From: an uncultured Ignavibacteria bacterium
GTDB taxonomy: Bacteria > Zixibacteria > MSB-5A5 > CAIYYT01
Length of the DNA: 64,000 nt
Direction of reading: 5' to 3'
NCBI GenBank assembly: GCA_964537215.1
Contig: CAZIBI010000002.1
Location: 1 to 64,000 of the forward strand
The notes below the pieces were generated by a model, which did not search any database, was not told the origin of the DNA, and saw nothing but the letters and a program-made list of their open reading frames with translations. Both the position numbers and the translations under genes were made by a program. Positions 26,379 through 48,092 of this stretch are shown here, piece after piece (the first letter of the stretch is position 1; each line of letters begins with the position of its first letter).

Positions 26379-26439
26379 TTATAGGAGAGGATGATTGCTC
26401 CAGTGAGGCATACGCATGGAGCACGGGAGGAGTTTCAGA

Positions 26440-27069: not shown

Positions 27070-27096
27070 TCTTTGACTATTGGTCAGGAGGTGTCA

Positions 27097-27789: not shown

Positions 27790-28019
27790 GTGGCGCTGGC
27801 TGAAGACATGTTCGCTTGAAGGCGCAGTAATTCGATTTGCCTTGGCAAGAGAAGTCGGGTCGGTCAATTGGAATTCTTCATTACTTCTCGGGGTTGTGAG
27901 TAACCCTGCCAATCGCGCATCGAAGTGCCAAGCGAATAGTCAGTTGTATTGCCGGCGATTGAACTCCTTGTGGAAAAATGTCGGTGCGGTCCGCTTCGAC
28001 GGAGAAAGGAGAAATAGAA

Positions 28020-28400
28020 ATGACACAGGCCATAACAACCAGAAGCGTAGCACTTTCTGCACAGTCCAAGCGCGTTCTTACGAGTGTCACACGGCATTTG
28101 GAAGCGTTTTTTCGCAGGGTGCTTAGAATCGAATGGACGATCGATACCAGTGGCCGCGGCATAGAGGTCCATTTGAAAGTACATGCGCGCTCCGGGCACT
28201 ATCGCGCACATTGTTGCGTGAACGATGTGGACGCGGGAATTCGCTTAGCAGCTGATCGGGTTGAACGCCAAAGGCGCAGAAAGAAGAAAATCGACTTGCG
28301 AGAGAAGCGTCGGTCGATCTTGTCTCCGAAAGCACGTTTGGCGAAGACCAGCAATACAGGCAAGAGCGCCGGAAATGTCCTTCGTGACTGGCAAAGCTGA
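28020..28400 (+). CDS. hpf: Ribosome hibernation-promoting factor / RaiA-family (short HPF)
   Basis: Beta-alpha-beta-beta-beta-alpha pattern with the conserved AIDxxxDxxERQ..K tail (DAGIRLAADRVERQRRRKK). AAAGGAGAAA SD. Confidence 0.6.
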   Translation: MTQAITTRSVALSAQSKRVLTSVTRHLEAFFRRVLRIEWTIDTSGRGIEVHLKVHARSGHYRAHCCVNDVDAGIRLAADRVERQRRRKKKIDLREKRRSILSPKARLAKTSNTGKSAGNVLRDWQS

Positions 28401-28440
28401 TTCGCCGCAAGGACCGCAGCACGGAAGGAAGTGACACGCG

Positions 28441-29541
28441 ATGAATCTCGATACTTCAGTTGCCGCCAATACTCCGATCGACTGGCTGGTTGCACTCTTG
28501 GTGCCGCTGGTAGCGAGCGGAATAGTCTGGTTGATTCGGTTCTATGTCAAGAAGCGACTGGCGGTATTAGCAGCAGCGACTGACAATGTCCTGGATGACA
28601 TCCTGGTAGATCTCATCGGCGGCGTCAATCTGTTCATCGTATTTGTCGTTGTCGCCTTCATGTCTTCGCGAGCCCTCGTGTTGCCGGAATCCCTGGTTCC
28701 GATTATCAAGACTCTAGCTATTATCGCAGCCTTCGCGCAAGTGGCAATCTGGGGAAACGGTCTGATCTCGATGTTTCTGAATCGCGCCCAAATGAATGAG
28801 GGTTCGCAGCGAATCAATCCATCGGCGCGCAGAGCCATGGGATATCTTGGTCGGCTAGTTCTGTGGACACTAGTAGGTGCACTATTGCTGGAAAACCTGG
28901 GAGTCCAACTAAGCGCATTACTTGCCGGTGTCGGAATCGGCGGCATCGCACTCGCTCTGGCCGCGCAAAATGTCTTGGGAGACATCTTCTGCTATGTCGC
29001 CATCATTCTCGATAAGCCGTTCATCGCCGGTGACTTTGTTATCGTGGGCGAGATGATGGGGACGATCGAGCGGATTGGAATCAAAACAACGCGGGTTAGA
29101 TCGCTTTTCGGCGAACAATTGGTTTTCTCAAATCATGATTTAGTCACAAGCAGATTGCGGAATTACAAGACTATGAGTCAGAGGCGAGTAGTTTTCAGCT
29201 TCGGAGTCGCATACGAAACGCCTGTCGAATCAGTCAAGGGAATTCCGGAAATGACGCGCGAAATAATTTCTTCGATTGAGAGTACGAGATTTGATCGAGC
29301 CCACTTCGCCAAATTTGGTGACTTTAGCCTGGATTTTGAGATTGTGTACTACATTCTCGACAGCGACTACAATCGCTACATGGATATTCAACAACGGATC
29401 AATGTTGAATTGATGAAGCGCTTCAGGGACGAGGGAATCGAGTTCGCATATCCGACCCAGTCGCTTTATCTCAAGCGGCCGGAACGAATAGTAAGGGAGG
29501 CGCCGCCGTTGGTCGCGGAGGAAAGTGATGGGTACAATTGA
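28441..29541 (+). CDS. Small-conductance mechanosensitive channel (MscS family)
   Basis: TM3 pore-helix-like LALAAQNVLGDIFCYVAIILDKPFIAGDFV followed by the MscS beta-domain. The stop overlaps the downstream start. Confidence 0.85.
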   Translation: MNLDTSVAANTPIDWLVALLVPLVASGIVWLIRFYVKKRLAVLAAATDNVLDDILVDLIGGVNLFIVFVVVAFMSSRALVLPESLVPIIKTLAIIAAFAQVAIWGNGLISMFLNRAQMNEGSQRINPSARRAMGYLGRLVLWTLVGALLLENLGVQLSALLAGVGIGGIALALAAQNVLGDIFCYVAIILDKPFIAGDFVIVGEMMGTIERIGIKTTRVRSLFGEQLVFSNHDLVTSRLRNYKTMSQRRVVFSFGVAYETPVESVKGIPEMTREIISSIESTRFDRAHFAKFGDFSLDFEIVYYILDSDYNRYMDIQQRINVELMKRFRDEGIEFAYPTQSLYLKRPERIVREAPPLVAEESDGYN

Positions 29542-29711
29542 ATAGGAATAAATCAGATGGTGATATAGGGTTCGACCGCGGGCTAGATGTTGAAGCACCG
29601 CGACTCGAACCGCAAGGTTTATCTTTGGAAAATCCAATCGCAAATTTCGAGAGCAATACTGTGCATACCGCGGCGGGCCTCGCCGCCAGGATCGAGGCGG
29701 TTGCACGCGGT

Positions 29712-31139
29712 ATGAAGCTGATCGTGGTGTCGAACCGAGAGCCATGTATTCATGAGCGAACCGGACAGGGACTGCGAATTGTGAGACCGGCAAGCGGCAT
29801 GGTAACGGCGCTGGAACCGATTGTGCGGGCGGTCGGCGGAACATGGGTTGCCCATGGATCCGGTAGCGGCGATCGCAACGTCGTCGATGCTCGGGATCGC
29901 GTAGTCATTCATGCTAATGAACAGCAATACACGCTTCGGCGAGTCTGGTTGACGCGACAGGAGGAAGAGGGATATTATTATGGGCTATCCAACAGTGCGC
30001 TGTGGCCCCTGTGTCACATTGTGTACCAGATGCCCGAATTTCGCAAGAGCGATTGGGACCAGTACCTCGCAGTAAACGAGAAATTCTGCCAGGCTGTTCT
30101 TGAGGAAGCGGAGGGGGGACCAGCGATTGTCTTTATTCAAGACTATCAGCTCGGACTACTTTCGCGCCTGTTAAGAAATCGTCGAAGCGATCTCGTACTG
30201 GTACAGTTTTGGCACATCCCTTGGCCAAATCGGGAGGCCTTCCGCGTTTTTCCGTGGGGCGAACAACTGCTTGACGGGCTTTTAGGCAACGACATATTGG
30301 GTTTCCACATTCAGTATCACTGCAATAATTTCATGGACACTATCGATCGCGGAATTGAGGCCAAAGTTGATTACGAACATTTTCGCATTTTTCGCGGCGG
30401 TCGTCCAACCTCGATTCGTCCGTTTCCGATTAGTGTTGACTCGGCGCAGATAGAATCAGATTCGCATTTGCCCCGTGTTGATGAAAAGATCCTTGAATTT
30501 AGCGCTGCTATCGGTTACGCCCCCGGCAATCGAAGGTTGTTTGTCGGCGCTGACCGGATCGACTACACGAAGGGAATTCTTGAACGATTAAAGGCTCTTG
30601 ACGTCTTGATGCAACAACATCCGGAACTTCGCGGGAATATTAGTTTCATGCAGTTGGCCGCACCCAGCCGCACCCACATTGATGTATATCGTGACCTTAA
30701 TGATCGGATAGAAGATCTGGTTGACGACATAAACTGGCGCCATCAAACTGACGAATGGCAGCCCATCCATTACCTCAGAGCTCAACACGACTATTATGCG
30801 GTTTTAGCCGCCTACCGGATGGCTGATGTTTTATTGACCACGTCGTTGCATGACGGCATGAATTTGGTCGCCAAGGAATTTATTTCCACCAAGAGTGATA
30901 ACAGCGGAGTTCTCGTGCTTTCTCAATACACCGGGGCTGCCCGGGAAATGCCCGATGCCCTTTTAGTAAATCCGTTCGATGTCGAGGATCTTGCCGCAGC
31001 CATGTATGCGGCCTGCACGATGTCGGAGACCGAAATTAGTCAACGGATGTCGCGCCTTAGAGACCAACTAACTAATAACAATGTCTATTCTTGGGGAGCA
31101 AAAATCTTCGACGAGATTAGAAAGGTGCTTCCGCAATGA
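29712..31139 (+). CDS. otsA: Trehalose-6-phosphate synthase-like GT20 glycosyltransferase (OtsA; could also be a glucosylglycerol-phosphate synthase)
   Basis: GT20 architecture (KLIVVSNREP..., IQDYQL, FWHIPWP, C-terminal GMNLVAKE). An alternative TTG start at 29538 overlaps the MscS stop. Confidence 0.75.
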   Translation: MKLIVVSNREPCIHERTGQGLRIVRPASGMVTALEPIVRAVGGTWVAHGSGSGDRNVVDARDRVVIHANEQQYTLRRVWLTRQEEEGYYYGLSNSALWPLCHIVYQMPEFRKSDWDQYLAVNEKFCQAVLEEAEGGPAIVFIQDYQLGLLSRLLRNRRSDLVLVQFWHIPWPNREAFRVFPWGEQLLDGLLGNDILGFHIQYHCNNFMDTIDRGIEAKVDYEHFRIFRGGRPTSIRPFPISVDSAQIESDSHLPRVDEKILEFSAAIGYAPGNRRLFVGADRIDYTKGILERLKALDVLMQQHPELRGNISFMQLAAPSRTHIDVYRDLNDRIEDLVDDINWRHQTDEWQPIHYLRAQHDYYAVLAAYRMADVLLTTSLHDGMNLVAKEFISTKSDNSGVLVLSQYTGAAREMPDALLVNPFDVEDLAAAMYAACTMSETEISQRMSRLRDQLTNNNVYSWGAKIFDEIRKVLPQ

Positions 31140-31915
31140 GCGAAGCGAGCAAGCGTGCAAACTCAATTTGGGTATTTGACTTTGATGGAACATTATCGGA
31201 AGTCGTCCCGGATCGCAACGAAGCTTCACTTCATCCTGCGTGCCAACAAATGTTGACTGCCTTATTAGGCAGCGAGAGTGAAGAGGTTGCGATCTTGTCA
31301 AGTCGCCGGCTGGAGGACTTGATTCCGCGCATTCCGTTTCGAGGAATTCTGCTGGCAGCTAGTAGCGGACTGGAACTACAATTGTCGAACGGGGAAATTG
31401 TCCTTCCAAACAAGAGAGAATTTCAAGAATTGGAGCCTGTTCGTCTCCAGATCATGCCGCTTGTGAGGTCAATTGAACTAAATATCCCGTTCGTCGAGAT
31501 TGAAGACAAGTTGTGGTCAGTGACAGTTCACTATCGTCGCGTTTCTCCGGATAACCGTCCGTCGCTGCGCTATATGCTTGCAGCGCTTGGTTCGATTCCG
31601 GGGATTCAAGTATTTGAGGGAACGGAGGCGCTCGAATTGATGATGGTGCCACGCTATAGCAAATCTGCGGGTCTACGCAAGATTGCCAGAATCACTGGAT
31701 TTGACCGATGCGTTGCCAAAATTGTCTTCGCAGGAAACGATGAGAACGATGCCCGCGCCATGAGGTGGGTACTGGGCAAGGGGGGACGATCAATAGTTGT
31801 GGGGAATCGCATACACGTCGAGGGCGCGCTCGTTGTTTCGGACCAAGTGGAACTAGCAGCCAAAGTCATGTCGTTGCGGCTATCGCAAAAGACGCCGCAT
31901 TCTGCGGGGCGATGA
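31136..31915 (+). CDS. otsB: Trehalose-6-phosphate phosphatase-like HAD hydrolase (OtsB)
   Basis: HAD motif I (IWVFDFDGTL). ATGA overlap with the otsA stop. Confidence 0.75.
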   Translation: MSEASKRANSIWVFDFDGTLSEVVPDRNEASLHPACQQMLTALLGSESEEVAILSSRRLEDLIPRIPFRGILLAASSGLELQLSNGEIVLPNKREFQELEPVRLQIMPLVRSIELNIPFVEIEDKLWSVTVHYRRVSPDNRPSLRYMLAALGSIPGIQVFEGTEALELMMVPRYSKSAGLRKIARITGFDRCVAKIVFAGNDENDARAMRWVLGKGGRSIVVGNRIHVEGALVVSDQVELAAKVMSLRLSQKTPHSAGR

Positions 31916-32154
31916 TCAGAATTGACCTGTAAAGTCTATTGCTTCCGGAACAAACTCGATATCCTACTCACTACTTGCAACAAATTGTATGCATGAGTTG
32001 CCGCAAATCACCGGATATTCCCGTAAACCAGATTGAAGTTAATTCTCGCACTTGCAATCGGTCTTTCAAATTCTTCCCCCAGAGCCGAAAGAATGTTCTT
32101 GTGGAGAGAAAAGCTGAAGAGTATCTGGTAAGGTAGTTAGTCAGGAAAGAGCTA

Positions 32155-33378
32155 ATGCAAAACGAGTTTATTGAGAGCGTACTCACATTCCTAAAGGCTC
32201 CCGAAGTCGGTTACATACTACTGATTTTCTTTCTTTTCATCGTGCCGAGAATTCTGCAACGATTTCGACTTCCGTCAGCCATCACGAGCTTTGCGCTCGG
32301 AATTGCCGCGGGAATGGGGCTGAACATTTTCCAACACGATGAGACTATCGCGCTGCTTGCGACTTTGGGAATTGTCTCGCTGTTCTTACACGCAGGTCTC
32401 GATGTCAGCGTCTCCGAGCTTCGTCGGAACTCCCGTGTATTGATCTACCATTTGATATTTCTCTTGCTGTTGCTTGTGGTCGGGTCGATTGTGGTTGCTA
32501 AGGTCTTCGAGCTGTCAATGCGAGTCTCGATTCTCATCACTCTGGCACTGGCGACTCCATCGACTGGCTTTATTCTGGACTCGATCAAGGCCTTTGGACT
32601 CAGCGACGATGAGAGAAACTGGATCAAGACCAAGGCGATCTCGGCAGAATTACTTGCGTTGGCAGGCATGTTTCTCACGCTTCAATCCCTGACCGCAGAG
32701 AAGTTCCTGATTTCGATGGGAGTTATGCTGGCTCTAGCTCTCTTGATCCCTTTCTTCTTTCGTTTCTTTGCCTCGAAGATTGTTCCGTACGCCCCCAATT
32801 CGGAGTTTGCGTTCCTAATCATGTTGGCGATTGCATGTGCCTTCGTTACGCGAAAGATTGGCGTCTATTATCTCGTCGGCGCGTTTGTGGTTGGCGTCGC
32901 AGCCACAAGCTTCAAGCAGAAACTCCCTTCGGTGGCGTCCGATCGGCTCTTGCACTCTGTCGAGCTATTCGCTTCATTTTTTGTTCCTTTCTATTTCTTC
33001 AAGAGCGGGACATCGCTAACAGCCTCTGACTTCAGCCTGAACGCGTGGCTTCTTGCCGGCGCCTTCATTGTGATCATGGTTCCGGCCCGACTCGCAGTGG
33101 TTGTTGCACACCGGCGTTTCGCGCTCAAGGAATCGGTCCGGGAAGGACTCCGCGTCGCCTTCCCGATGCTGCCCACACTGATTTTCACTTTGGTTCTGGC
33201 CCAAATTCTGCGCGAGCAATTTGCTCTTAGCAACGAACTCTTCGGAGGTCTGGTGATCTACGCTGTTGCGACGAGCCTGATGACAGGCTTTGTTTTCCGG
33301 ACACCGCAACCAGATTTCGAGAGTGAACTGATTGAGCATTCGGCGTCGTCGGTGACGCCAACAAAAAGCGAGGGGTAA
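32155..33378 (+). CDS. Cation:proton antiporter-family membrane protein
   Basis: 407 aa with 11–12 TM helices and Na_H_exchanger-like N-terminal helices. Confidence 0.55.
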   Translation: MQNEFIESVLTFLKAPEVGYILLIFFLFIVPRILQRFRLPSAITSFALGIAAGMGLNIFQHDETIALLATLGIVSLFLHAGLDVSVSELRRNSRVLIYHLIFLLLLLVVGSIVVAKVFELSMRVSILITLALATPSTGFILDSIKAFGLSDDERNWIKTKAISAELLALAGMFLTLQSLTAEKFLISMGVMLALALLIPFFFRFFASKIVPYAPNSEFAFLIMLAIACAFVTRKIGVYYLVGAFVVGVAATSFKQKLPSVASDRLLHSVELFASFFVPFYFFKSGTSLTASDFSLNAWLLAGAFIVIMVPARLAVVVAHRRFALKESVREGLRVAFPMLPTLIFTLVLAQILREQFALSNELFGGLVIYAVATSLMTGFVFRTPQPDFESELIEHSASSVTPTKSEG

Positions 33379-33391
33379 GGAACGGAATTCA

Positions 33392-35149
33392 CTAGCGTCG
33401 GATTTGGTCAACGAGCCTGCGATTGTAGAATTCAAGAACAGAGTTTCGCAAAAGCAACCCGACCGGCCTGAAAGCTTCAGAATCAAGCACCGGAAGTAAT
33501 TGAGAGCCCGTAAGGTTAAACTTGTTTAGCGCGGTTTCAAGGCTGTCCGTGACGAGCAGCGATGGCGTTTCAACGCTTACGATGTCTCCGGCAACGATCA
33601 CACCACCGGTTTCTCGATACGAAAGAATCGACCTGATATCACCCAGTGATGCGACACCACGGAAAGCTCCATCTTTGTCAACCACCACCACGGCCGGGCA
33701 GTTGGCATCTTCTAGCATCTCAAGGAAATCGTCGACAGGAGTGCTTGTTGAGACTTGCGCCGAGATCGGACTCATCACTTCGGTGACTTTCAGAGAATTG
33801 AGGATATTGGCATCACGGCCGGAGCGCAAGTCGATTCCGCGCTTAATTAGCTTTGCCGTATAGATCGAGTGTGCAAAAATACCCCGGGAAACCAACGATG
33901 ATACGGCTACCGTTACCATCAGCGGCAGTATGATGTGGTAGTCTCCGGTCATCTCGAAGATGATCATCAACGCCGTTATCGGGGCGTGGGTCGTTCCTGC
34001 AACGAGGCCCGCCATTCCGACGAGGGCGTAGGCGCCCGGATCCGCAGTGACGCCGGGGAAGAGCGCTTGGGCTACGAATCCAAAAGCTCCGCCGGCCATT
34101 GCTCCGGTGAAGAGGGATGGGGCAAAGATGCCGCCCGAGCTGCCTGAACCAAGAGTCAGCGACGTGGCGACGATTTTGAGAAATATCAAAGGGATGAGAA
34201 GCGCCAGTGCCATGTTGTTGTGAAGTGTCAGTCTGATTGTTTCATATCCATCGGCAAGCACTTGCGGATAGAGAAATGCAACTATACCAAGCAATAACCC
34301 ACCTAAGGCAGGTTTAACAATCGACGGCAGCTTCATCGATTCGAACGCGTCCTCGAAATAGTCAAGCGTCTTTGTGAAAAGGACGGCTAACGCACCGAGA
34401 ACAGCGCCCATACCCACATACATGAGAATTTCCCAAGCGGAGACGAGCTCGTACGGAGGCACCTCAAAAGCCGGATGATTTCCAAGTATTGACCTTGTGA
34501 GTACGGACGCCAAAACCGAGGAGATGAGGACCGGCGAGAAAGTGCTGATGGCGAAATCTCCCAAGATAACCTCGAGGGAGAAGAATACGCCGGCGATCGG
34601 CGCATTAAAGATAGCCGAGATACCGGCGGCCGCGCCGCATCCCACCAGTAGTCTGACATTGTTGGTCGAGAGGCCGAAGAACTGCGCAACGGTCGATCCG
34701 AGAGCCGAGCCAATCTGTACAATGGGACCTTCGCGGCCGGCAGAGCCACCGGAGCCGATGCAGATTGCTGACGCAACGGACTTAGCCAAAGCCACCCGTG
34801 GCCTGATGATACCGCCAAGTCGGGCAACGGCATTCATAACTTCCGGAACACCGTGTCCTTTGGCTTCTTTGGCGAAGTGGAAAACGATTGGTCCGACCAG
34901 AAGACCGCCCAGCATTGGGATAATCGGCGTCCAATAGTGAAAACCCGCTCCTCCCAGGGCAGTCGAGAGAAGTTGATCCGTCATGCCGAAAAAGAGTCGA
35001 TTGAAGTAACGGATGAGCGCAGTAAATCCGATCGCACCAAGCCCCGTCACGATGCCGACGCTTGCCGCCATTAGCAGAAGGGCATTGATTCCGCGAATCC
35101 GAAAGCGATCCAGAAAACTTAAGATATTCTTGCCAGCTTGCACGATCAT
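33392..35149 (-). CDS. ClC-family chloride channel/antiporter with C-terminal CBS pair
   Basis: GSGGSAGREGP, GxFAPSL(F) and GREGP selectivity motifs, C-terminal CBS domains. Probable ATG at 35149; the ORF track opens on TTG at 35164. Confidence 0.85.
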   Translation of the reverse strand: MIVQAGKNILSFLDRFRIRGINALLLMAASVGIVTGLGAIGFTALIRYFNRLFFGMTDQLLSTALGGAGFHYWTPIIPMLGGLLVGPIVFHFAKEAKGHGVPEVMNAVARLGGIIRPRVALAKSVASAICIGSGGSAGREGPIVQIGSALGSTVAQFFGLSTNNVRLLVGCGAAAGISAIFNAPIAGVFFSLEVILGDFAISTFSPVLISSVLASVLTRSILGNHPAFEVPPYELVSAWEILMYVGMGAVLGALAVLFTKTLDYFEDAFESMKLPSIVKPALGGLLLGIVAFLYPQVLADGYETIRLTLHNNMALALLIPLIFLKIVATSLTLGSGSSGGIFAPSLFTGAMAGGAFGFVAQALFPGVTADPGAYALVGMAGLVAGTTHAPITALMIIFEMTGDYHIILPLMVTVAVSSLVSRGIFAHSIYTAKLIKRGIDLRSGRDANILNSLKVTEVMSPISAQVSTSTPVDDFLEMLEDANCPAVVVVDKDGAFRGVASLGDIRSILSYRETGGVIVAGDIVSVETPSLLVTDSLETALNKFNLTGSQLLPVLDSEAFRPVGLLLRNSVLEFYNRRLVDQIRR

Positions 35150-35395
35150 ATCATAAACAATCAAATTTCTGCGCCAAGCTCATATGGCACCCGAATCCAT
35201 GAAGGTGAGTGCTCAAGAGATCACTGGAGACTTCGAATCTTGTGTTACACGAAGTACCTTTCCGTTATTAGGAACGTCAGTGGCTACCGTGTCCAACGAC
35301 ATGTCTCTGATTGCGTGTAAGACCATTCTGTGACTGTTGCTGTTTTCGGAAGTGGAGACACTGTCCTCGTGTCCCACAAATGCTTTGCGGCACGG

Positions 35396-35424
35396 ATTGG
35401 CAAGGACGCAAGGGACTAAAAATT
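35396..35424 (+). repeat. Degenerate fragment of the tRNA-like repeat head (GACGCAAGGGACTAAAAA), about 55 bp upstream of copy 2
   Basis: 18/19 identity with the D-arm/anticodon portion of the repeat head. Confidence 0.4.
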
Positions 35425-35474
35425 ACTTGTGCGTACTACAGGTCTCTTGTAATGTTGTGCCACTGAGTTATTTT

Positions 35475-35512
35475 GCCGGAGTGGCGAAATTGGTAGACGC
35501 AAGGGACTTAAA
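35475..35512 (+). pseudogene. tRNA-Leu(UAA)-like 5' half, copy 2 (best-preserved)
   Basis: Identical to canonical bacterial tRNA-Leu(UAA) from G1 through the anticodon loop CTTAAAA, then unrelated sequence. Confidence 0.65.
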
Positions 35513-35652
35513 AAGCGAACCCGACGAAAACGTAAATGAATGAGCTTCATTGTATTACATTGTGTAACAATCTGATAGCTCGCACTTCTTGATGTATTAG
35601 TTTGGATCGACTTTGACTATTTGGGACTGAATGTAGTCACAAATTGGTCACA
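35475..35652 (+). repeat. 178-bp direct repeat, copy 2
   Basis: GCCGGAGTGGCGAAATTGGTAGACGCAAGGGACTTAAAAAGCGAACCCGACGAAAAC ... TTTGGATCGACTTTGACTATTTGGGACTGAATGTAGTCACAAATTGGTCACA. Confidence 0.85.
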
Positions 35653-35917
35653 ACGTGGATTTGTTAATCTCCGCACGGTTTGCTGATTCTCCCCATTCGC
35701 GTACGGTTTCTGTTAACGTCAAGCAGTTCTTTGACCTTCGGATCGCGACAGCAGCACGGCTTGATTCAAGCCCTTGCCTGCGGCTATAGTGGATGGAAAC
35801 CCCCTGATATCGTTCAGAGGGAGCTATGGACCTGAGCATGCAGAAGTCCATTGGAGTGGATAAATCCCTCCAGTACGACTCGCACAGGGAGACGCTACTT
35901 TTGTCGTGCGCCTTCAG

Positions 35918-38053
35918 CTAACCCCGCAGTAACCGGAGTGCGTTCGCGATGACCAGAAGCGCAGAAACTTCATTGAAGAGTAGACCAGGCACAAGCCCAA
36001 TCCATCCAAGGAGTGCGGCTGGGATAAGAACCGCGACAATAGCCAAGGACGCAATCGTATTCTGCTGCATATTGTGAACTGCCCGGCGACTGAGATTTAG
36101 TACGAGTGGCAACTTCGCTAAATCATCTGACATCAAGACAACGTCGCCCGTTTCTTTCGCAATATCGGTTCCGCGTGTACCCATGGCAATACCGACATCA
36201 GCTGAGGCCAGGGCCGGCGCATCATTGATCCCGTCACCCACCATGCCGACCGCGCCGAACTGCTGGCGGATTCGTTCAATTGTATCGACCTTCTGCTCAG
36301 GCAAGAGCCCCGCGTAGAACTCGTCGATGCCTGCCTGTGCGGCAATAGCCTGAGCAGTTCCGTGATGGTCACCAGTCAGCATGACAGTATGCAGGCCTTC
36401 GCTCTTAAGCGATGCTACAGTGCTCTGGACATTCGATCGGAGCTGGTCGGCTACGGCCACAATACCAAGCAGTTTTTGTTTATCGGCAAGCAAAACGACG
36501 GTCTTGGCATTTTGTTCCAGACCAGCTATCACCTCTAGTTGCTCGGGCGATATCTTCACTCCGTGTGTGCTTAGCAGACTCTGGTTGCCTACCAGATAGC
36601 TTGTTCCGTTCACTAGGGCGCGGACCCCCTGGCCGGTCACGGAGTCGAACTCCTCCGGTACACTCGCTGTCGGCACTGAGAGGGATCGCGTGTGTCGCAC
36701 GATGGCTTCAGCCAGAGGGTGCTCCGAACGTGATTCAATGCTCGCCGTCACCGATAGGATATCGTTCTGGGTTAGTCCGTTAAAGGGTATCAGATCGGTT
36801 ACCACCGGCAGTCCAATGGTGAGCGTTCCCGTCTTATCAAATGCAAGCGCCTTGATCCTGGCGGCGGCCTCTAAGTACACTCCACCCTTGAAGAGCACAC
36901 CTCGCCGAGCGGCGGTCGCGACAGCAGCAACGACTGAAACCGGCACAGAAAGAGCCAAGCCGCAGGAACAAGACACTACCAGCACTACGAGTCCACGATA
37001 AATGTATTCGCCCCATGCTGTAGCAAAAAGCATCGGTGGAACGACCGCAACTGTCAACGCCAAGGCGAACATGGTTGGGGTATAAATGCGGCCGAATTTC
37101 TCCGCGAATCGCTGGTACGAGGACTTCTTGGCCTGTGCTTCTTCGACGGAGTGAATGATACGAGCCAACGTGGTGTCGCGAGCAAGCTTTGTAACCTCGA
37201 TCTCGAGCGAGCCTTTTTGGTTAATGGTCCCGGCAAACGCCTCATTGCCAACCACCATGTGCACCGGCATCGGCTCGCCAGTGATAGTCGATGTATCAAC
37301 GTACGACGATCCGTCTGTGACCCTCCCGTCAATAGGAATCTTCTCGCCGGGGCGAATGATAACCGTATCACCGATGCGGACTTGCTCTGTGGGAAGAATT
37401 ATTTCTCTACCGTCGCGGCGAACCAGCGCCTCTCTGGGAACAAGATCCATCAGCGCCCGGACCGCTCCGCGAGCCCGATCAACTGCGTATGCTTCGAGGA
37501 CATCTCCCAATGAGTAAATGACCACCAACAGCGCCGCTTCTTCCCAGAGGCCGAGAGCAACTGCGCCTGCAGCGCCGACGACCATGAGCAGGCGAATATT
37601 CAGCGTTAATGTTCGTAATGCAAGCAAGCCCATCCGGGCAGGAAAGTAAGCACCGATGAGAATGGCCGCCCCAAAGAGCACTTGGACCGCGCTGTGTTGT
37701 ACGCCGAATGTTTCCGCGCCGAAGCCGGACAGAACAAGGACACCGCTGGCAAGGAGAGCGATCACTTGCGGTGTGAGCCATCGACGCGTTGGCGTGACAA
37801 CAGGGCTCCGAGAGCGCGGAGTCGCTTTCAATCCGGTGGCATTGGCAGCTTGGACGACTTGATCCAGTGATATCTTCGCAGCATCGTACTCGACTGCGAC
37901 TTCCCGCGTCATGAGGTTAGCCTGCCAGCGACTTACACCGGGCAGACGCTTGAGCGCCTGGTCGATCAACACAACCTCGTCGTTGCAATCCATGTTTGCA
38001 ACAAACAAGGTCGCCGATGCGTGGTTTGTGGCTGTATTTGGCACTTTGTTCAT
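35918..38053 (-). CDS. Heavy-metal-translocating P1B-type ATPase
   Basis: N-terminal HMA-like domain, DKTGTLT phosphorylation motif, GDGINDAP, TGD. The TM6 metal motif reads SCSC rather than the usual CPC. Confidence 0.85.
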   Translation of the reverse strand: MNKVPNTATNHASATLFVANMDCNDEVVLIDQALKRLPGVSRWQANLMTREVAVEYDAAKISLDQVVQAANATGLKATPRSRSPVVTPTRRWLTPQVIALLASGVLVLSGFGAETFGVQHSAVQVLFGAAILIGAYFPARMGLLALRTLTLNIRLLMVVGAAGAVALGLWEEAALLVVIYSLGDVLEAYAVDRARGAVRALMDLVPREALVRRDGREIILPTEQVRIGDTVIIRPGEKIPIDGRVTDGSSYVDTSTITGEPMPVHMVVGNEAFAGTINQKGSLEIEVTKLARDTTLARIIHSVEEAQAKKSSYQRFAEKFGRIYTPTMFALALTVAVVPPMLFATAWGEYIYRGLVVLVVSCSCGLALSVPVSVVAAVATAARRGVLFKGGVYLEAAARIKALAFDKTGTLTIGLPVVTDLIPFNGLTQNDILSVTASIESRSEHPLAEAIVRHTRSLSVPTASVPEEFDSVTGQGVRALVNGTSYLVGNQSLLSTHGVKISPEQLEVIAGLEQNAKTVVLLADKQKLLGIVAVADQLRSNVQSTVASLKSEGLHTVMLTGDHHGTAQAIAAQAGIDEFYAGLLPEQKVDTIERIRQQFGAVGMVGDGINDAPALASADVGIAMGTRGTDIAKETGDVVLMSDDLAKLPLVLNLSRRAVHNMQQNTIASLAIVAVLIPAALLGWIGLVPGLLFNEVSALLVIANALRLLRG

Positions 38054-38396
38054 TCTCCTAAGTGCAGTTTATCATAGATCGTGACGCTGCGGAAGGTGCC
38101 TTGCACACTACCTATTCGGAACTCGCGCGCCCAAATCCCATCGGCCAACTGAGCGTCGAAGATCTGTTCCTCTGGAATGTTATGGCTCGTCTCATTTCCG
38201 GATAGGGAAGCATATTCCTTTCTGGCGTCACAACCGCAAATACAACCATCGATGCTGAGGCAAAGTGTGCATGCTGTTACCACTTGACCAATTCGGAGGT
38301 ACAGCCGCAACCGTTTAGGGAAAGATCGCCCGTTCTTGCTTGACAGTTCTTTTGTCAGAAAGGTAGATTTCCGATGCCCGACTTGAACTTGCAAGG

Positions 38397-38786
38397 TCAT
38401 CGGCAGGCATCCACGATTCGCACAATTTGTCCTTCTACCTGCGCTGCGATCGCCGCCACGTCTTTGCTGGGGAAGAAGTTGGAGATTACTGTCGGTCGCA
38501 TTGCGCAAATGAACGTACGTCCCTTGTCGGCATAGATGCTGATGGGACAAGGAAGCATCAGAGAGATCTCTGGATCGATGCTGAGGACGTCATTCGCGAA
38601 TTTGGCGTTGCAGATTTCCACAATTTTCATCGATTCACGAACAAATCCTTTGGCCGCCAAGGTTGCTTGAACGTCGTGAACGTGCAGCACGCGAAACCCA
38701 GCATCCTGGCTCGTTGCCTCGACTGCAGCAAGCGCGGCGTCCACACTCTTGCCCGTCTCAACCGTATAGTCGAATTCCTTTTGCAT
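38397..38786 (-). CDS. DUF302-family protein
   Basis: Conserved DUF302 core (GFRVLHVHDVQATLAAKGF...MLPCPISIY). Start at internal ATG with GAGGAG SD. Confidence 0.65.
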   Translation of the reverse strand: MQKEFDYTVETGKSVDAALAAVEATSQDAGFRVLHVHDVQATLAAKGFVRESMKIVEICNAKFANDVLSIDPEISLMLPCPISIYADKGRTFICAMRPTVISNFFPSKDVAAIAAQVEGQIVRIVDACR

Positions 38787-38949
38787 TGCTTTGACTCCTC
38801 GGTAAAACGATTTCAATTGATTCTGCTCCACTGTCTGCACACCTGCGTTCGTGATCAACTCGCCTCAACGCACTCGGCACGAAACCGATGCTGCGTTGCA
38901 ATGTTGTTCTCAAACGTTTCGGTTTTATCGATAGCAATTCCACGCACGC

Positions 38950-39489
38950 CTACGGTCGTGTCCGAAAATGAAGCATGAAGCCGCCGTATTGGTAGCTATT
39001 CATGTCCATCATCATGCCATTGCGACCGCGTACGTCACCGTAAACGTACAGCATGCAGTTCGTATTCGGCATCAAGGTTGAGTCGACGTAGAATGTGCAG
39101 CTGTCGAGCATTTGATTCCACTCAAATGAGCCGTGAAAATCGATTGAGTCGAGCCAGTTCATCATGTGGCCCATGTTCATCATGCCGCCGCCCATCATAC
39201 CACGGTGATGCTGGAGCGAGTCCATCCAGCTGGGCAAACCCGGACTTGCAGTGAAGTGGAAGTTGTGTCGGAAGCTGGCTGAGTCCATCGGCATATCAAA
39301 CTTGATGTCGAGAATCGGTTTTAAGGCAACGTCGTTACTTCCTTCTGCCGGCGTGACGCGAACGATTTTCGGTGCGGTCGTAGGAAGACTATTGCCAGTA
39401 GTCTTATTGTCGTCACTGCAACCGGCAATCCACGAAAGCGACACTACCAGAACCAGCCCGAGCAATGCTGTGACAGAGAATTGTCTCAT
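38950..39489 (-). CDS. Lipoprotein with Met/His-rich motif (candidate Cu/Ag-binding periplasmic protein)
   Basis: Signal peptide plus lipobox (WIAGCSDD). HHRGMMGGGMMNMGHMMNW Met-rich stretch. AAGGAGA SD. Adjacent to the czc-type operon. Confidence 0.5.
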   Translation of the reverse strand: MRQFSVTALLGLVLVVSLSWIAGCSDDNKTTGNSLPTTAPKIVRVTPAEGSNDVALKPILDIKFDMPMDSASFRHNFHFTASPGLPSWMDSLQHHRGMMGGGMMNMGHMMNWLDSIDFHGSFEWNQMLDSCTFYVDSTLMPNTNCMLYVYGDVRGRNGMMMDMNSYQYGGFMLHFRTRP

Positions 39490-39683
39490 GCTAAAGTCTC
39501 CTTATTGAAGCAAATCTGAGTAAAAGACACCGTTTCTCAAACGAGACACAGAATACATGTACGAAACAAACCACGCTTGTTGAGTTTCTGACACGCAGTA
39601 CGCTAACATCTATTGACATGTCTTTGCTTGAAACCGTGGAAGGTAGCGTCCAACGCGAAGAACAGTTTCCACATACTCGAATC

Positions 39684-42600
39684 TTAGTTGTTTGTTATTG
39701 CCTCACTTTCCGCCGCTCTATGGAAGATGCGATACAAGGCGGGCAGCACAACCAATGTCAAGAACGTCGATGACAATATTCCGCCAATCACAACGGTCGC
39801 CAGAGGTCGCTGTACCTCAGCACCCGAGCCGGTCGCAATAGCCATTGGCACAAATCCCAGTGAGGCGACCAGCGCTGTCATCAGCACGGGGCGCAGGCGA
39901 GTCAACGCGCCGCGTTTGATCGCATCTTCAAGATGACTACCTTCCTCACGAAGTTTGTTGATAAACGAAACCATCACCAGGCCGTTGAGTACGGCTATAC
40001 CTGAAAGCGCGATAAAACCAACTCCGGCCGAGATTGACAGCGGTATGTCCCTAAACCAAAGCGTCAGAATGCCGCCGGTCAGAGCCAGTGGGATGCCGGT
40101 AAAGACCAGTATCGAATCCTTGATCGAGCCGAAAGTAGCGAAGAGGAGCAAGAAGATCAGCAATAAGGCAATGGGCACCACGACCTGCAGTCGTGCTTTT
40201 GCAGCAATCAAGTTTTCGAACTGACCGCCCCAGGTCATCCAATACCCAGCAGGCAACTTTACGTTTTCGTTTATTTTCTCCTGCGCCTCAGCGACGAACG
40301 AGCCGATATCGCGGCCGCGCACGTTTGATTGCACCACCACACGACGCTTGCCGTTCTCGCGGCTAATTTGGTTCGGTCCTTCAGCAATACTGATCTTCGC
40401 AATTGCCCCAAGAGGCACATAGCCCGGATCGACATCACCGGAAAGAGCATAGGAAGCGAAGGCTATCTCGCGCTCGCGATCTGCACTTGGCTCGGGCAGC
40501 GGAATCGCAAGGAACTCCAGCGCCTCCACGTCACGCCGCACTTCCTCAGGAAGACGGACCACGAGGTCGAAGCGTCGATCTCCCTCGAATACCTGGCCGA
40601 CGCTCGTGCCGCCGACCGCAGCTTCGACAACTTCCTGCACATCTGCAATATTCAATCCATAACGAGCTATGGCAAGGCGGTCTAGGTCAACCGTCAGAAT
40701 CGGTAGGCCAGTGACCTGTTCAACCTTGATGTCCGCTGAGCCGCGGACATCTTGCAGGATTGCGGCTATCTTCTGTCCCTGCTCAAGCATTACCTCCAAA
40801 TCGTCGCCGAATACTTTCACGGCAACGTCGCTGCGCACGCCAGCAATGAGCTCGTTGAAGCGCATCTGAATTGGTTGAGTGAATTCGTAAGCGTTTCCCG
40901 GCAGATGGTCGATAGCTTCTTCAATGTCTTTTACTAAGTCTGCCTTTGGTTTACTTGGATCAGACCACTCGGAACGTGGCTTGATGATGATAAAACCGTC
41001 AGCAATCGAGGGGGGCATGGGGTCGGTGGCAATCTCCTGCGTACCGATTTGGGCAAAGACGCGTTCCACCTCCGGCACCGTCAGCACGGCTCGCTCCCAT
41101 TCTTTCTGCATCTCCGTTGACTGGGCCAGACCCGTCGAGGGAATGCGGAAGGATTGAATGAGGACATCACCTTCATCGAGCTGCGGGATGAATTCACTCC
41201 CCATACGAGAAGCGACGAGTGTGCAGAAGATGATGAAGGCGCTGGCGACAGTTACGGTCATCCACCGCTGCTGAATCACCTTGTCCAAGAGTGGTTCGTA
41301 TACGCGCTTGCAGCCGCGGATAACAATGCTTTCCTGCTCGGAAACCTTGCCGCCAAGAAACAATGCTATGCCTGCTGGAATGAACGTAAACGTTAGAATC
41401 AGCGCTCCGGCAAGGGCGAACAGCACCGTCTCAGCCATTGGAATGAACATTTTGCCTTCGATGCCGCCCAGAGTGAGGATCGGCAGGTAAACTATCATGA
41501 TGATTGCGACGCCAAACAGAGTTGGCTTAGACACTTCGCGAGCACTTTCGAACGCTTCTTCGAGGCGTTCACCTTTTGTCAGGAGTCTCCCCAGATGCTT
41601 TTGGCGCTCTGAGAATCGGCGGATGATGTTCTCGACCATAACTACGGCGCCGTCAACGATGATGCCGAAGTCGATGGCGCCAAGGCTCATGAGGTTGCCA
41701 CTAACCTTGTTCCCTACCATCCCGGTTACTGCAAAGAGCATGGATAGCGGAATGGTCAGCGACACAAGGAGCGCCGCACGGAGATTGCCAAGCAGAGCGA
41801 AGAGGATAGCGATGACCAAGACCGCGCCTTCAAAAAGATTGTTGCGGACTGTTCGCAGAGTAGCGTCCACAAGATGAGTGCGGTCGCGAACAGTGCGGGC
41901 AATAATGCCTTCCGGCAACGTCTCGTTAACTTCTTTCATTCGGGCATCCACGCGCCTGGAGACCGTTCGACTATTCTCACCCATGAGCATGAACACCGAA
42001 CCAAGCACAACCTCTTCGCCGTTCTCCGTAGCTGATCCGGTTCGCAGTTGCTTGCCAAGATCAACATTGGCAACATCGCGGATAAAGACCGGGGTACCGT
42101 CATTTTCGCCGATAATGATGTTGCGAATGTCGTCAACACCGCTCACCAGTCCGGGTACGCGAATGAGGTATTGCTCGCCCTTGTGCTCGATATAGCCAGC
42201 TCCGACTGAGCTGTTGTTTTTGGCAAGCGCTTCCATGACGTCATGAAAGCTCAGGCCGTAGGCAACCAATCGCGCGGGATCGGGGGTCACGTGGAATTGC
42301 TTTTCGTACCCGCCGACGGTGTTGACTTCGGTTACGCCGGGTACGGTTCGGAGTTGTGGTTTGATCACCCAGTCCTGGATTTCTCGCAGGTCAGTGGGCG
42401 TGTACGGCTCACCGTTCGACTTGGTTGCGCCCGGCTCCGCTTCGATGGCCCAACTGTATATCTCACCAAGACCTGTCGATATTGGCCCCATTTCCGGCTC
42501 ACTCGCTGTGGCCGGGAGATTTGCTTTGGCCTCCTGCAATCTCTCATTCACCAACTGACGGGCAAAGTAGATATCGGTTCCGTCTTCGAACACGACCGTC

Positions 42601-42878
42601 ACCTGCGACAGCCCGTAACGTGACAACGAACGGGTATGTTCTACTTTTGGTATGCCGCCCATGGCCGTCTCAATAGAAAAGGTAATCTGTTTTTCAACCT
42701 CGAGCGGTGACATGCCCGGCGCTGCAGTGTTAATCTGCACTTGCACATTGGTAATGTCCGGCACGGCGTCAATCGGCAGACGGTTGAAGTTGTAAATCCC
42801 GAGCACTGCCAAGCCAACGACCGCCAACAAAATGAGCCAGCGGTTGTGTATGGAAAAGTTTATTATTTTTTCAAGCAT
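39684..42878 (-). CDS. czcA: Heavy-metal efflux RND transporter, CzcA/CusA family
   Basis: 1064 aa, 12 TM helices plus large periplasmic loops, HME-RND-type conserved segments. Confidence 0.9.
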   Translation of the reverse strand: MLEKIINFSIHNRWLILLAVVGLAVLGIYNFNRLPIDAVPDITNVQVQINTAAPGMSPLEVEKQITFSIETAMGGIPKVEHTRSLSRYGLSQVTVVFEDGTDIYFARQLVNERLQEAKANLPATASEPEMGPISTGLGEIYSWAIEAEPGATKSNGEPYTPTDLREIQDWVIKPQLRTVPGVTEVNTVGGYEKQFHVTPDPARLVAYGLSFHDVMEALAKNNSSVGAGYIEHKGEQYLIRVPGLVSGVDDIRNIIIGENDGTPVFIRDVANVDLGKQLRTGSATENGEEVVLGSVFMLMGENSRTVSRRVDARMKEVNETLPEGIIARTVRDRTHLVDATLRTVRNNLFEGAVLVIAILFALLGNLRAALLVSLTIPLSMLFAVTGMVGNKVSGNLMSLGAIDFGIIVDGAVVMVENIIRRFSERQKHLGRLLTKGERLEEAFESAREVSKPTLFGVAIIMIVYLPILTLGGIEGKMFIPMAETVLFALAGALILTFTFIPAGIALFLGGKVSEQESIVIRGCKRVYEPLLDKVIQQRWMTVTVASAFIIFCTLVASRMGSEFIPQLDEGDVLIQSFRIPSTGLAQSTEMQKEWERAVLTVPEVERVFAQIGTQEIATDPMPPSIADGFIIIKPRSEWSDPSKPKADLVKDIEEAIDHLPGNAYEFTQPIQMRFNELIAGVRSDVAVKVFGDDLEVMLEQGQKIAAILQDVRGSADIKVEQVTGLPILTVDLDRLAIARYGLNIADVQEVVEAAVGGTSVGQVFEGDRRFDLVVRLPEEVRRDVEALEFLAIPLPEPSADREREIAFASYALSGDVDPGYVPLGAIAKISIAEGPNQISRENGKRRVVVQSNVRGRDIGSFVAEAQEKINENVKLPAGYWMTWGGQFENLIAAKARLQVVVPIALLLIFLLLFATFGSIKDSILVFTGIPLALTGGILTLWFRDIPLSISAGVGFIALSGIAVLNGLVMVSFINKLREEGSHLEDAIKRGALTRLRPVLMTALVASLGFVPMAIATGSGAEVQRPLATVVIGGILSSTFLTLVVLPALYRIFHRAAESEAITNN

Positions 42879-42889
42879 ATGGTAGTCTC

Positions 42890-43231
42890 CTATACCGCTG
42901 CATCGCCGGTTTCACCGGTGCGGATGCGTGCCACGTATGCGATATCGCTGATGGTTATGATTCCGTCGCCGGCGTTGCCCGTATGGGCGTGCCCGGCAAT
43001 AGCCTTCACGATGCTGTCGGCATCTTCATCAGAGCAAATAATCTCAATGCGCTCCTTGTCGTGGAACTGAATCTCGTCTTCGGTTAGAACGAAGGTGCCG
43101 CCCTGGCCGCGGCCGCGGCCCTGGCCCTGACATTTGAGTACCGTCATGCCCGGGAAATGGGGAAGCTCATGCAGCGCTTGCGCCACCTTGCTGAACATAT
43201 GTGGTTGAATGGTTGCTTTGATTTCTTTCAT
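42890..43231 (-). CDS. P-II (GlnB)-like small protein associated with the RND efflux operon
   Basis: 113 aa, ferredoxin-like PII fold pattern (MKEIKATIQP...GMTVL...G.G...). Confidence 0.6.
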   Translation of the reverse strand: MKEIKATIQPHMFSKVAQALHELPHFPGMTVLKCQGQGRGRGQGGTFVLTEDEIQFHDKERIEIICSDEDADSIVKAIAGHAHTGNAGDGIITISDIAYVARIRTGETGDAAV

Positions 43232-43240
43232 GGCTTCCTC

Positions 43241-48083: not shown

Positions 48084-48092
48084 GTGCGGCAA

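What the first reader, a model, noticed from the sequence alone, without database searches (positions are those of the whole stretch)
35475..35512. Repeat head is a precise tRNA-Leu(UAA) 5' half ending at the 3' edge of the anticodon loop; no 3' half anywhere nearby
GCCGGAGTGGCGAAATTGGTAGACGCAAGGGACTTAAAA matches bacterial tRNA-Leu(UAA) from nucleotide 1 through loop position 38, and identity then stops abruptly. The anticodon 3' stem, variable arm, T-arm and acceptor 3' strand are absent.
- Tyrosine integrases that target tRNA genes cross over in the anticodon loop, but the displaced or duplicated part is almost always the 3' portion.
- Three copies of a 5' half would imply elements that each carry a 5' half, with the intact gene expected at the far right of the array beyond this window.
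- A bolder alternative is a split-tRNA-like or tRNA-half-derived RNA, since the breakpoint matches the canonical 37/38 split/intron position.
Basis: partly seen in the sequence, partly recalled or inferred. Interest (0 to 1): 0.7.

Follow-up and report, generated by a model that had tools for sequence, protein, structure and literature searches.

The report
Orphan tRNA-Leu halves bounding genomic islands
The three tRNA-Leu(UAA) 5' halves are most likely scars left where successive genomic islands inserted into one tRNA gene of a Zixibacteria genome; this is a rare orientation of a well-known process, not a split tRNA.

Summary
Three same-strand copies of nucleotides 1-38/39 of tRNA-Leu(UAA) lie at 23257, 35475 and 46906, where chance predicts none. 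The window holds no 3' half, no tRNA and no intron.

Each copy has a promoter-like upstream region and is followed by a conserved, indel-free stretch of about 140 nt ending in GTAGTCACAAATTGGTCACA. The copies separate three gene blocks:
- osmotic/ion stress genes;
- metal efflux genes;
- defence and mobility genes.

A related metagenome contig (L122) shows the full layout: orphan 5' half, the same 140-nt arm, a small cargo gene, the motif, the promoter region, then an intact tRNA-Leu(UAA). Its first 39 nt are identical to window copy 2. A second Zixibacteria genome (L143) has the same orphan next to the same ClC gene but with different cargo.

I read these as attachment-site repeats of a tandem island array in which the elements carry the promoter and 5' half, so the intact gene should lie beyond the window's right end. 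Such 5'-fragment islands are known but rare (159 of 3919 in Islander).

Neither the recombinase nor this genome's intact gene was seen. The split-tRNA and intron readings are not supported.

The parts
23209..23237 (+). Promoter-like pair upstream of copy 1: TCGTGT, 17 nt, TAAATT
   Evidence: Read. The same two blocks are aligned in all six sites in alignment A4. Its function as a promoter is inferred. The consensus scanner was run only around copy 3 and did not flag the equivalent pair there.
23257..23295 (+). Copy 1 of the tRNA-Leu(UAA) 5' half (positions 1-38/39). Substitutions: C3G, A21G, A37G.
23296..23434 (+). Conserved arm after copy 1 (P'-like), ending in GTAGTCACAAATCGGTCACA at 23415-23434
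   Evidence: It is 59-66% identical to the other orphan arms, against 33% to the sequence after the intact gene.
23435..35404 (.). Gene block 1. Contains LPG_synthase_C-like, two Na+/H+ exchangers, MarR, an S30AE-like protein, MscS, trehalose-6-P synthase and phosphatase, and a ClC channel. No integrase.
   Evidence: Pfam. The MarR-like, MscS and ClC genes are chromosomal neighbours of imuB/dnaE2 in relative L143, so this block is not a simple single insertion.
35405..35422 (+). Extra core-like piece GACGCAAGGGACTAAAAA, 53 nt upstream of copy 2
   Evidence: 1 mismatch; 0.07 matches expected by chance. Origin unexplained.
35427..35455 (+). Promoter-like pair upstream of copy 2: TTGTGC, 17 nt, TAATGT
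35475..35513 (+). Copy 2 of the tRNA-Leu(UAA) 5' half, 39/39 identical to the intact gene of L122
35514..35673 (+). Conserved arm after copy 2 with the motif at 35633-35652. Similarity to L122 and L143 runs 20 nt past the motif.
35674..46709 (.). Gene block 2. Contains a heavy-metal P-type ATPase, a CzcCBA-like RND efflux system (OEP, HlyD, AcrB), P-II and unknowns. No integrase.
   Evidence: Pfam, PHROGs, tblastn with five integrases.
46710..46905 (+). Element right arm (P-like) upstream of copy 3. Contains the motif GTAGTCACAATTTGGTCACA at 46763-46782, CAAGTGACAATTTATCAATCA at 46803-46823, and the promoter-like pair TTGCGT/CAAATT at 46858-46886.
   Evidence: With the tRNA half (46710-46944), 78% identical over 237 nt to the region upstream of the intact tRNA-Leu in L122.
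46906..46944 (+). Copy 3 of the tRNA-Leu(UAA) 5' half, with T34C in the anticodon
46945..47083 (+). Conserved arm after copy 3 with the motif at 47064-47083
47084..64000 (.). Gene block 3, cut by the window end. Contains an M78 peptidase, a HerA/TrwB-like NTPase, a Cas4-like nuclease, DUF932, type III restriction-modification, a Ppl-like PHP-ATPase and a SEC-C protein. In relatives it continues with a large serine recombinase, HTH_3 and two Replic_Relax genes.
   Evidence: extension.

Best explanation
The three 5' halves are direct repeats of an attachment site at the borders of a tandem array of genomic islands inserted into one tRNA-Leu(UAA) gene of a Zixibacteria chromosome.

**Proposed mechanism.** The elements of this family carry, in their attachment site, the tRNA promoter region and the 5' half up to the 3' edge of the anticodon loop. 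Arm sequences with GTCACA-type repeats flank this core. Recombination in or near the anticodon stem-loop joins the element-borne promoter and 5' half to the resident 3' half, which keeps the gene functional. The resident promoter and 5' half are displaced to the left end of the element, next to the 140-nt arm. Repeated insertions, or insertion into an existing orphan site, give the array seen here.

**Reading of each copy.**
- Copy 1 is the left junction next to chromosomal genes.
- Copy 3 is an element-element junction that has both arms.
- The intact gene should follow the last island, to the right of the window.

**What is shown and what is inferred.**
- Shown: the repeats, their exact break point, the arms, the differing cargo, and the complete layout in a relative.
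- Inferred: the recombinase (most likely a tyrosine integrase with an arm-binding domain, encoded outside the window), the crossover position, the activity of the orphan promoters, and the position of this genome's intact gene.

Blocks 1 and 2 have no recombinase gene. They are therefore decayed or dependent islands, not autonomous elements.
For: 1. There are three copies on the same strand, spaced 12218 and 11431 nt apart, where chance predicts none.
2. The break falls exactly after A38 in all five orphans from three genomes, whereas the intact gene continues TCCCT.
3. L122 shows the whole layout: orphan, 140-nt arm, one cargo gene, motif, promoter region, then an intact tRNA-Leu(UAA).
4. The upstream arm and tRNA half of copy 3 (46710-46944) are 78% identical over 237 nt to the corresponding stretch of the intact gene in L122. 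Its downstream arm (46899-47083) is 80% identical to the L122 orphan arm. Copy 3 therefore has the form of a junction between two elements.
5. L143 has the orphan next to the same ClC gene as window copy 2, but it is followed by a different efflux island.
6. The tRNA part is 90-100% identical between copies. The arms are 59-78% identical with no indels, against 24-33% for unrelated sequence.
7. The arm motif AGTCACAAWTYGGTCACA lies 100 nt or less from the 3' end of a tyrosine integrase gene in 4 of 5 IMG/VR contigs that contain it. One of those integrases has an arm-DNA-binding domain.
8. Cargo is of the accessory type: stress, metal efflux and defence genes.
9. The L122 orphan has C20 and the L122 intact gene has T20. 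C20 occurs in another intact tRNA-Leu (L134). This fits a crossover 3' of position 20.
10. Islands with 5' tDNA fragments upstream of the gene, and tandem arrays, are documented (PMC4383910; PMC7192596).
Against: - The intact tRNA-Leu(UAA) of this genome was not seen. The source contig could not be fetched, and about 10 kb of a 96%-identical relative beyond the window end holds no tRNA, half or motif.
- No tyrosine integrase, or remnant of one, is in the window, L122, L135 or L137. In L143 only the gene table's precomputed Pfam hits were seen, and none is an integrase.
- The only recombinase near the array is a large serine recombinase just beyond the window.
- No empty site was found. Relatives with 86-87% identical POT have no tRNA-Leu next to it.
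- MarR-like, MscS and ClC lie between copies 1 and 2 here, but in L143 they sit beside imuB/dnaE2 on the chromosomal side of the orphan. Block 1 is therefore not a simple insertion.
- The five motif hits in IMG/VR are, by my rough estimate (not computed), about the number expected by chance. Only their position next to integrase genes is informative.
Confidence: 0.8

Rival explanations
1. The array is the same, but the recombinase is the large serine recombinase of block 3 rather than a tyrosine integrase. It would cut at a dinucleotide at the 3' edge of the anticodon loop. The long shared 5' half and promoter would then be kept by selection for an intact tRNA, not by the chemistry of recombination.
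For: A 553-aa Resolvase/Recombinase/Zn_ribbon_recom protein lies 1-3 kb beyond the window end in L135 and L137, next to HTH_3 and Replic_Relax genes. No tyrosine integrase was found anywhere. The sharp break after A38 would fit a fixed cut site.
Against: - The gene lies about 18 kb from copy 3 and at least 7 kb from any right end, not next to an att site.
- From established knowledge, serine integrases use short sites of about 50 bp without arm sites. Here 140-200 nt arms with repeated GTCACA motifs are conserved on both sides.
- The motif is associated with tyrosine integrase genes elsewhere.
- Islander's authors state that only tyrosine integrases were known to target tDNAs (PMC4383910).
Confidence: 0.12
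2. The copies are functional RNA genes. Either they are 5' halves of a split tRNA-Leu that pair with a 3' half encoded elsewhere, or they are promoter-driven tRNA-half-like RNAs with a regulatory role.
For: Each copy keeps a promoter-like upstream region. The break at 37/38 is the canonical split or intron position. The 140-nt arm is conserved without indels.
Against: - The window holds no 3' half.
- The 178-nt unit folds no better than shuffled sequence (z = -0.57). The consensus structure has a covariation term of -0.12 kcal/mol, and only 2 of 28 pairs show compensatory change.
- The halves carry substitutions at positions 3, 21, 34 and 37.
- A relative has an ordinary intact gene with the identical 5' half right next to an orphan.
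- From established knowledge, split tRNAs are known in archaea that have the splicing endonuclease, not in bacteria.
Confidence: 0.03
3. Each copy is the 5' exon of an intron-containing tRNA-Leu(UAA) gene, as in the group I intron genes of cyanobacteria and some proteobacteria, and the 3' exon was missed.
For: tRNA-Leu(UAA) is the classic host of a group I intron in the anticodon loop. Two loci from the genome scan show this: L023 has an Rfam RF00028 hit, and L025 has a similar sequence.
Against: - Rfam finds no intron or tRNA exon in the window at gathering score, and none around copy 2 at E<=10. The same tool detects the intron in L023.
- No 3' exon pattern is present anywhere in the window.
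- The sequence after A38 is unrelated to the L023 and L025 introns.
- Protein-coding genes start about 245 nt after copies 1 and 3.
Confidence: 0.01

Closest known systems
Genomic islands in tRNA genes that leave a 5' tDNA fragment (Islander database: 159 of 3919 islands, against 3760 with a 3' fragment; PMC4383910)
   Same: A displaced end fragment of the tRNA gene lies in the same orientation, upstream of the regenerated gene. The crossover region is centred on the anticodon loop. The cargo consists of accessory genes.
   Different: Islander requires an integrase inside each island, and blocks 1 and 2 here have none. The intact gene of this array was not seen. The host phylum (Zixibacteria) is uncultured.
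Tandem arrays of integrative elements at one att site (TIGER/Islander, PMC7192596; Islander counts 125 arrays of two or more and 4 of three or more)
   Same: Successive insertion into the restored core gives adjacent, unrelated islands separated by repeated att cores. Junctions between two elements carry both arms, as at copy 3.
   Different: Only one of the three blocks has any recombinase nearby. Synteny with L143 shows further rearrangement within the array.
Tycheposon islands of Prochlorococcus (bioRxiv 10.1101/2020.12.28.424599)
   Same: Cargo islands accumulate next to a specific tRNA gene. Partial tRNAs and degenerate, integrase-less remnants are scattered through the island, and newer elements push older ones inward. 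A minority of those elements carry a large serine recombinase.
   Different: No homology to tycheposon genes was tested or seen. Which tRNA part tycheposons duplicate was not checked here. The conserved arms with the GTCACA motif seen here were not compared with tycheposon att sites.
Cis-mobilisable elements (CIMEs) and accretion of ICEs in Streptococcus thermophilus (from my own knowledge, not checked here)
   Same: Islands flanked by att sites lack their own integrase and excisionase, sit in tandem with a complete element, and can in principle be moved by its recombinase.
   Different: Mobilisation is untested here. The target and the polarity differ.

Membership tests
tDNA-targeting integrative island, 5'-fragment class, in a tandem array | The fragment is an end fragment of the tRNA gene, not an internal piece, and matches a real cognate tRNA | tested here: met
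   The fragment covers positions 1-38/39. Copy 2 is 39/39 identical to the intact tRNA-Leu(UAA) of L122.
tDNA-targeting integrative island, 5'-fragment class, in a tandem array | An intact cognate tRNA gene lies in the same orientation on the correct side, which for a 5' fragment is downstream | tested here: inconclusive
   The gene is not in the window, nor in about 10 kb of a relative beyond it. The feature is met in the related array of L122. The source contig could not be fetched.
tDNA-targeting integrative island, 5'-fragment class, in a tandem array | An integrase gene lies inside each island | tested here: not met
   Blocks 1 and 2, and the mini-island of L122, hold no tyrosine or serine recombinase. 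Block 3 has a large serine recombinase only in its extension beyond the window. Blocks 1 and 2 are therefore filed as integrase-less remnants or dependents, not as autonomous elements.
tDNA-targeting integrative island, 5'-fragment class, in a tandem array | Different cargo sits at the same site in related genomes | tested here: met
   After the orphan the window has metal efflux genes, L143 has MFS/RND efflux with MarR, and L122 has a single lipoprotein gene.
tDNA-targeting integrative island, 5'-fragment class, in a tandem array | A relative has an empty target site | tested here: inconclusive
   Relatives found through POT (86-87% identical) and ClC (78-80% identical) have different gene orders, and none has an unoccupied tRNA-Leu next to these genes.
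tDNA-targeting integrative island, 5'-fragment class, in a tandem array | Excision or circular junctions are observed | not testable with these tools
   This needs read mapping or PCR.
Split tRNA genes | A separate 3' half gene exists whose leader is complementary to the sequence after the 5' half | tested here: not met
   The window has no 3' half. A genome-wide search was not possible. The unit has no significant structure.
Group I intron-containing tRNA-Leu(UAA) | A group I intron fold follows the anticodon, with a 3' exon after it | tested here: not met
   Rfam finds nothing in the window. The positive control in L023 is detected.
Integron cassette array | An IntI-type integrase with attI, and hairpin-forming attC sites between the cassettes | tested here: not met
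   There is no integrase. The repeats are 180-nt direct repeats with no significant fold.

The most novel reading that the evidence does not exclude
The blocks are cassettes of a system mobilised in trans. Integrase-less cargo islands, each bounded by the conserved 140-nt arm and by the motif-bearing arm with a promoter and tRNA 5' half, would be captured and shuffled at one tRNA-Leu(UAA) gene by a single recombinase encoded at the end of the array, possibly the large serine recombinase. The retained tRNA promoters of the orphan halves would drive the first genes of the islands. These genes are co-oriented with the orphan at copies 1 and 3.
Probability: 0.12. Interest if true: 0.6.

Novelty: new member of a known kind. 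Interest (0 to 1): 0.3.

Why it matters
- **Genome dynamics in Zixibacteria.** The array marks a hot spot of gene gain in an uncultured phylum. Stress, metal-resistance and phage-defence genes have accumulated at one tRNA gene. The finding also gives the sequence signature needed to map such islands in other Zixibacteria genomes: the 5' half, the 140-nt arm and the GTCACAAATTGGTCACA motif.
- **A well-resolved example of the rare polarity.** Here the mobile element must bring the tRNA promoter and 5' half rather than the 3' end.
- **Annotation.** These copies should be labelled as att-site fragments, not as pseudo-tRNAs or split tRNAs.

Tried and rejected
- **Intron-containing tRNA.** Rejected by Rfam, with a positive control.
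- **Structured RNA or split tRNA.** The fold z-score is -0.57 and there is no useful covariation.
- **Empty site through flanking genes.** POT homologues and ClC homologues gave no unoccupied tRNA-Leu. The ClC route did yield L143, a third array.
- **Walking right to find the intact gene and the integrase.**
  - L001 added about 1 kb and L135 about 10 kb. This revealed a serine recombinase but no array end.
  - The 161-kb and 171-kb NCBI contigs named in the cluster tables were not on record.
  - The contig look-ups are now exhausted.
- **Integrase remnants.** tblastn with five integrases found nothing in the window, L122, L135, L137 or L001.
- **IMG/VR scans.**
  - Neither the orphan junction nor the P-arm block was found.
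  - The NTPase of block 3 has no close relative there.
  - The tRNA 5'-half pattern found only a conventional provirus downstream of an intact tRNA-Leu (L134).

Full report
**Observation**

The 39-mer GCCGGAGTGGCGAAATTGGTAGACGCAAGGGACTTAAAA is at 35475-35513 (+), so the finding's end coordinate is one base short. Related copies lie at 23257 (3 mismatches) and 46906 (1 mismatch). None of 100 shuffles gave a match.

Each copy heads a direct repeat of about 180 nt that is 72-78% identical between copies. The spacings are 12218 and 11431 nt.

The window holds no tRNA by any test:
- ARAGORN finds none in the whole window.
- Rfam finds nothing at gathering score, and nothing at E<=10 around copy 2.
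- A T-arm/acceptor pattern has no match with up to 3 mismatches.

**Is it really a tRNA-Leu(UAA) 5' half?**

Yes. A 31-nt core of the sequence occurs in more than 120 genomes. In 116 of the 120 loci fetched it is followed by TCCCT, the 3' strand of the anticodon stem.

The best comparison is metagenome contig L122 (Ga0209777_10094204). It ends in a tRNA-Leu(UAA) that Rfam scores at 52.9 bits, and that ARAGORN calls once the single base cut off at the contig end is added. Copy 2 is 39/39 identical to its start.

In the alignment of six sites, identity between orphans and gene stops exactly after A38, the last base of the loop CTTAAAA. The orphans go on AGC(A/G/C)A..GACGAAAA, while the gene goes on TCCCTCGC.

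**Anatomy of the repeat**

Upstream of every copy, and of the intact gene in L122, there is a conserved pair of blocks: TTG(T/C)G-type, then 17 nt, then TAAATT-type, about 20 nt before the tRNA start. I read this as the tRNA promoter. That is an inference. The consensus scanner, run only on the copy 3 region, did not flag it.

Downstream, the orphans share 139 nt without a single indel, ending in GTAGTCACAAATTGGTCACA. Identities are as follows:

| Region compared | Identity |
|---|---|
| tRNA part, between copies | 90-100% |
| Arm, between orphans | 59-78% |
| Orphan arm against the sequence after the intact gene | 24-33% |

The same motif also lies 140 nt upstream of copy 3, at 46763-46782. 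The region 46710-46944 is 78% identical over 237 nt to the region upstream of, and into, the intact gene of L122. Copy 3 therefore carries both arms, which is what a junction between two tandem elements should look like. Copy 1 has only the downstream arm.

**Gene content**

The left flank is ordinary chromosome: dnaE2/imuB, a PD40-amidohydrolase and a POT transporter. The POT homologues are named Candidatus Zixiibacteriota by their sources.

| Block | Content |
|---|---|
| 1 (between copies 1 and 2) | Ion, osmotic and stress genes |
| 2 (between copies 2 and 3) | Heavy-metal ATPase and a Czc-like RND pump |
| 3 (after copy 3) | M78 peptidase, HerA/TrwB-like NTPase, Cas4-like nuclease, DUF932, type III restriction-modification, Ppl-like protein |

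No recombinase gene or remnant is in the window.

**Related loci**

- **L122** shows the complete layout in 2.5 kb: orphan half, arm, one lipoprotein gene on the other strand, motif, promoter region, intact tRNA-Leu(UAA).
- **L143**, a Zixibacteria MAG contig, has an orphan with its arm next to a ClC gene 80% identical to the one beside window copy 2. A different efflux island follows it.

The same site therefore borders different cargo in three genomes.

One polymorphism fits a crossover 3' of position 20. The L122 orphan has C20 and its intact gene has T20, and C20 is a natural allele in another intact tRNA-Leu (L134).

**Mechanism**

The simplest account is site-specific integration into the tRNA gene in the rarer polarity:
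1. The element brings the promoter and 5' half.
2. The resident promoter and 5' half are displaced to the element's left end.
3. Repeated events build a tandem array, with the functional gene at the far right.

The arm motif supports a tyrosine integrase with arm-type sites. In IMG/VR the motif occurs in five contigs. In four of them it lies within 100 nt of the stop codon of a tyrosine integrase gene, and one of these integrases has an arm-DNA-binding domain. By my rough estimate (not computed), five hits is about what chance would give, so only their position is informative.

The recombinase itself was not found. About 1-3 kb beyond the window, a 96%-identical relative (L135) and a contig from the same sample as L001, which matches the window's right end (L137), carry a 553-aa large serine recombinase followed by HTH_3 and two Replic_Relax genes. 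This is a rival candidate. It is far from any att copy, however, and serine integrases do not use long arms (established knowledge).

**Complications**

- The intact gene of this genome was not seen, and the source contig could not be retrieved.
- No empty site was found.
- In L143, MarR-like, MscS and ClC lie beside imuB/dnaE2 on the chromosomal side of the orphan. The upstream 32 nt of that orphan match window copy 1, not copy 2. Block 1 is therefore not one clean insertion, and the array has been rearranged in at least one lineage.
- An extra 18-nt core-like piece at 35405-35422 is unexplained.

**Alternatives rejected**

- **Group I intron gene.** Rfam finds none here but does find one in L023.
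- **Split tRNA or structured RNA.**
  - The fold z-score is -0.57.
  - The covariation term is -0.12 kcal/mol, and only 2 of 28 pairs show compensatory change.
  - The halves have drifted at positions 3, 21, 34 and 37.

**Comparison with what is known**

- Islander lists 159 islands with a 5' tDNA fragment against 3760 with a 3' fragment. It lists 125 tandem arrays of two or more islands but only 4 of three or more (PMC4383910).
- TIGER describes how arrays arise by insertion into restored cores (PMC7192596).
- Tycheposon islands show the same mix of partial tRNAs and integrase-less remnants (bioRxiv 10.1101/2020.12.28.424599).

This is therefore a new member of a known kind. It is unusual in its polarity, the length of the array and the lack of integrases in two blocks, but it needs no new principle.

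**Verdict**

- Observation: confirmed.
- Confidence in the att-scar array: 0.8.
- Interest: 0.3.

Noticed in passing
L135 7276-8937 (-), equivalent to about 1-3 kb beyond the window's right end; also L137 1199-2860: A 553-aa large serine recombinase (Resolvase, Recombinase and Zn_ribbon_recom domains) is followed by HTH_3 and two Replic_Relax genes, so block 3 continues as a mobilisable-element-like module. Its left neighbour differs between strains: a SEC-C protein in L135 and an AAA_13 protein in L137.
   Followed up: partly
window 47084-64000: Block 3 is rich in defence genes: type III restriction-modification (54691-56922 and 56935-59631), a Ppl-like PHP-ATPase (59628-62309), a mad8/HerA-like NTPase (48178-49458, - strand) and a Cas4-like nuclease (50316-51077).
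   Followed up: partly
window 35405-35422: An extra 18-nt copy of the tRNA D-stem and anticodon stem-loop segment (GACGCAAGGGACTAAAAA) lies 53 nt upstream of copy 2, inside the promoter-proximal region. It may be a scar of a further recombination event.
   Followed up: partly
window 23269-23276, 35487-35494, 46918-46925 (tRNA D-loop region) and the arm motifs at 23415-23434, 35633-35652, 46763-46782, 47064-47083: The 8-mer AAATTGGT of the tRNA D-loop region recurs in the same orientation inside the motifs at 35633-35652 and 47064-47083 (GTCACAAATTGGTCACA). The motifs at 23415-23434 (AAATCGGT) and 46763-46782 (AATTTGGT) each differ from it by one base. This could mean the same protein domain reads both, or it could be coincidence.
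   Followed up: no
L143 (GCA_049664025.1 contig, read on the - strand) against window 12777-35102: In this relative the gene order is dnaE2, imuB, imuA, MarR-like, MscS, ClC, then the orphan half. Genes that lie between copies 1 and 2 in the window are therefore on the chromosomal side of the orphan there.
   Followed up: partly
L120 (Rhodopseudomonas palustris XCP, NZ_QKQS01000001.1, reverse strand around 4018-4056): An orphan tRNA-Leu(UAA) 5' part (to about position 42) has no tRNA within 8 kb. It is followed by two GTCAC(A/T)CTACGATCAGCA repeats and a T7-like single-subunit RNA polymerase gene. This may be a 5'-polarity prophage in a cultured bacterium.
   Followed up: partly
L055 (gammaproteobacterial MAG OZ255836.1), L023 and L025: In L055 an orphan tRNA-Leu 5' half sits 13-16 nt upstream of a different, intact tRNA-Leu(UAA). 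L023, and by sequence L025 (Steroidobacter flavus), carry a group I intron in tRNA-Leu(UAA).
   Followed up: partly
L134 71-1398 (IMG/VR UViG_3300047316_000539): A conventional arrangement at a near-identical tRNA-Leu(UAA), which has the same GCCGGAG acceptor stem. The intact gene is followed at once by a tyrosine integrase on the opposite strand, so the same tRNA type is also targeted from its 3' side.
   Followed up: partly
window 11312-16090 (-): An error-prone polymerase cassette (dnaE2, and an imuB-like gene of the IMS family) lies just left of the array. The same cassette flanks the array in L143.
   Followed up: no
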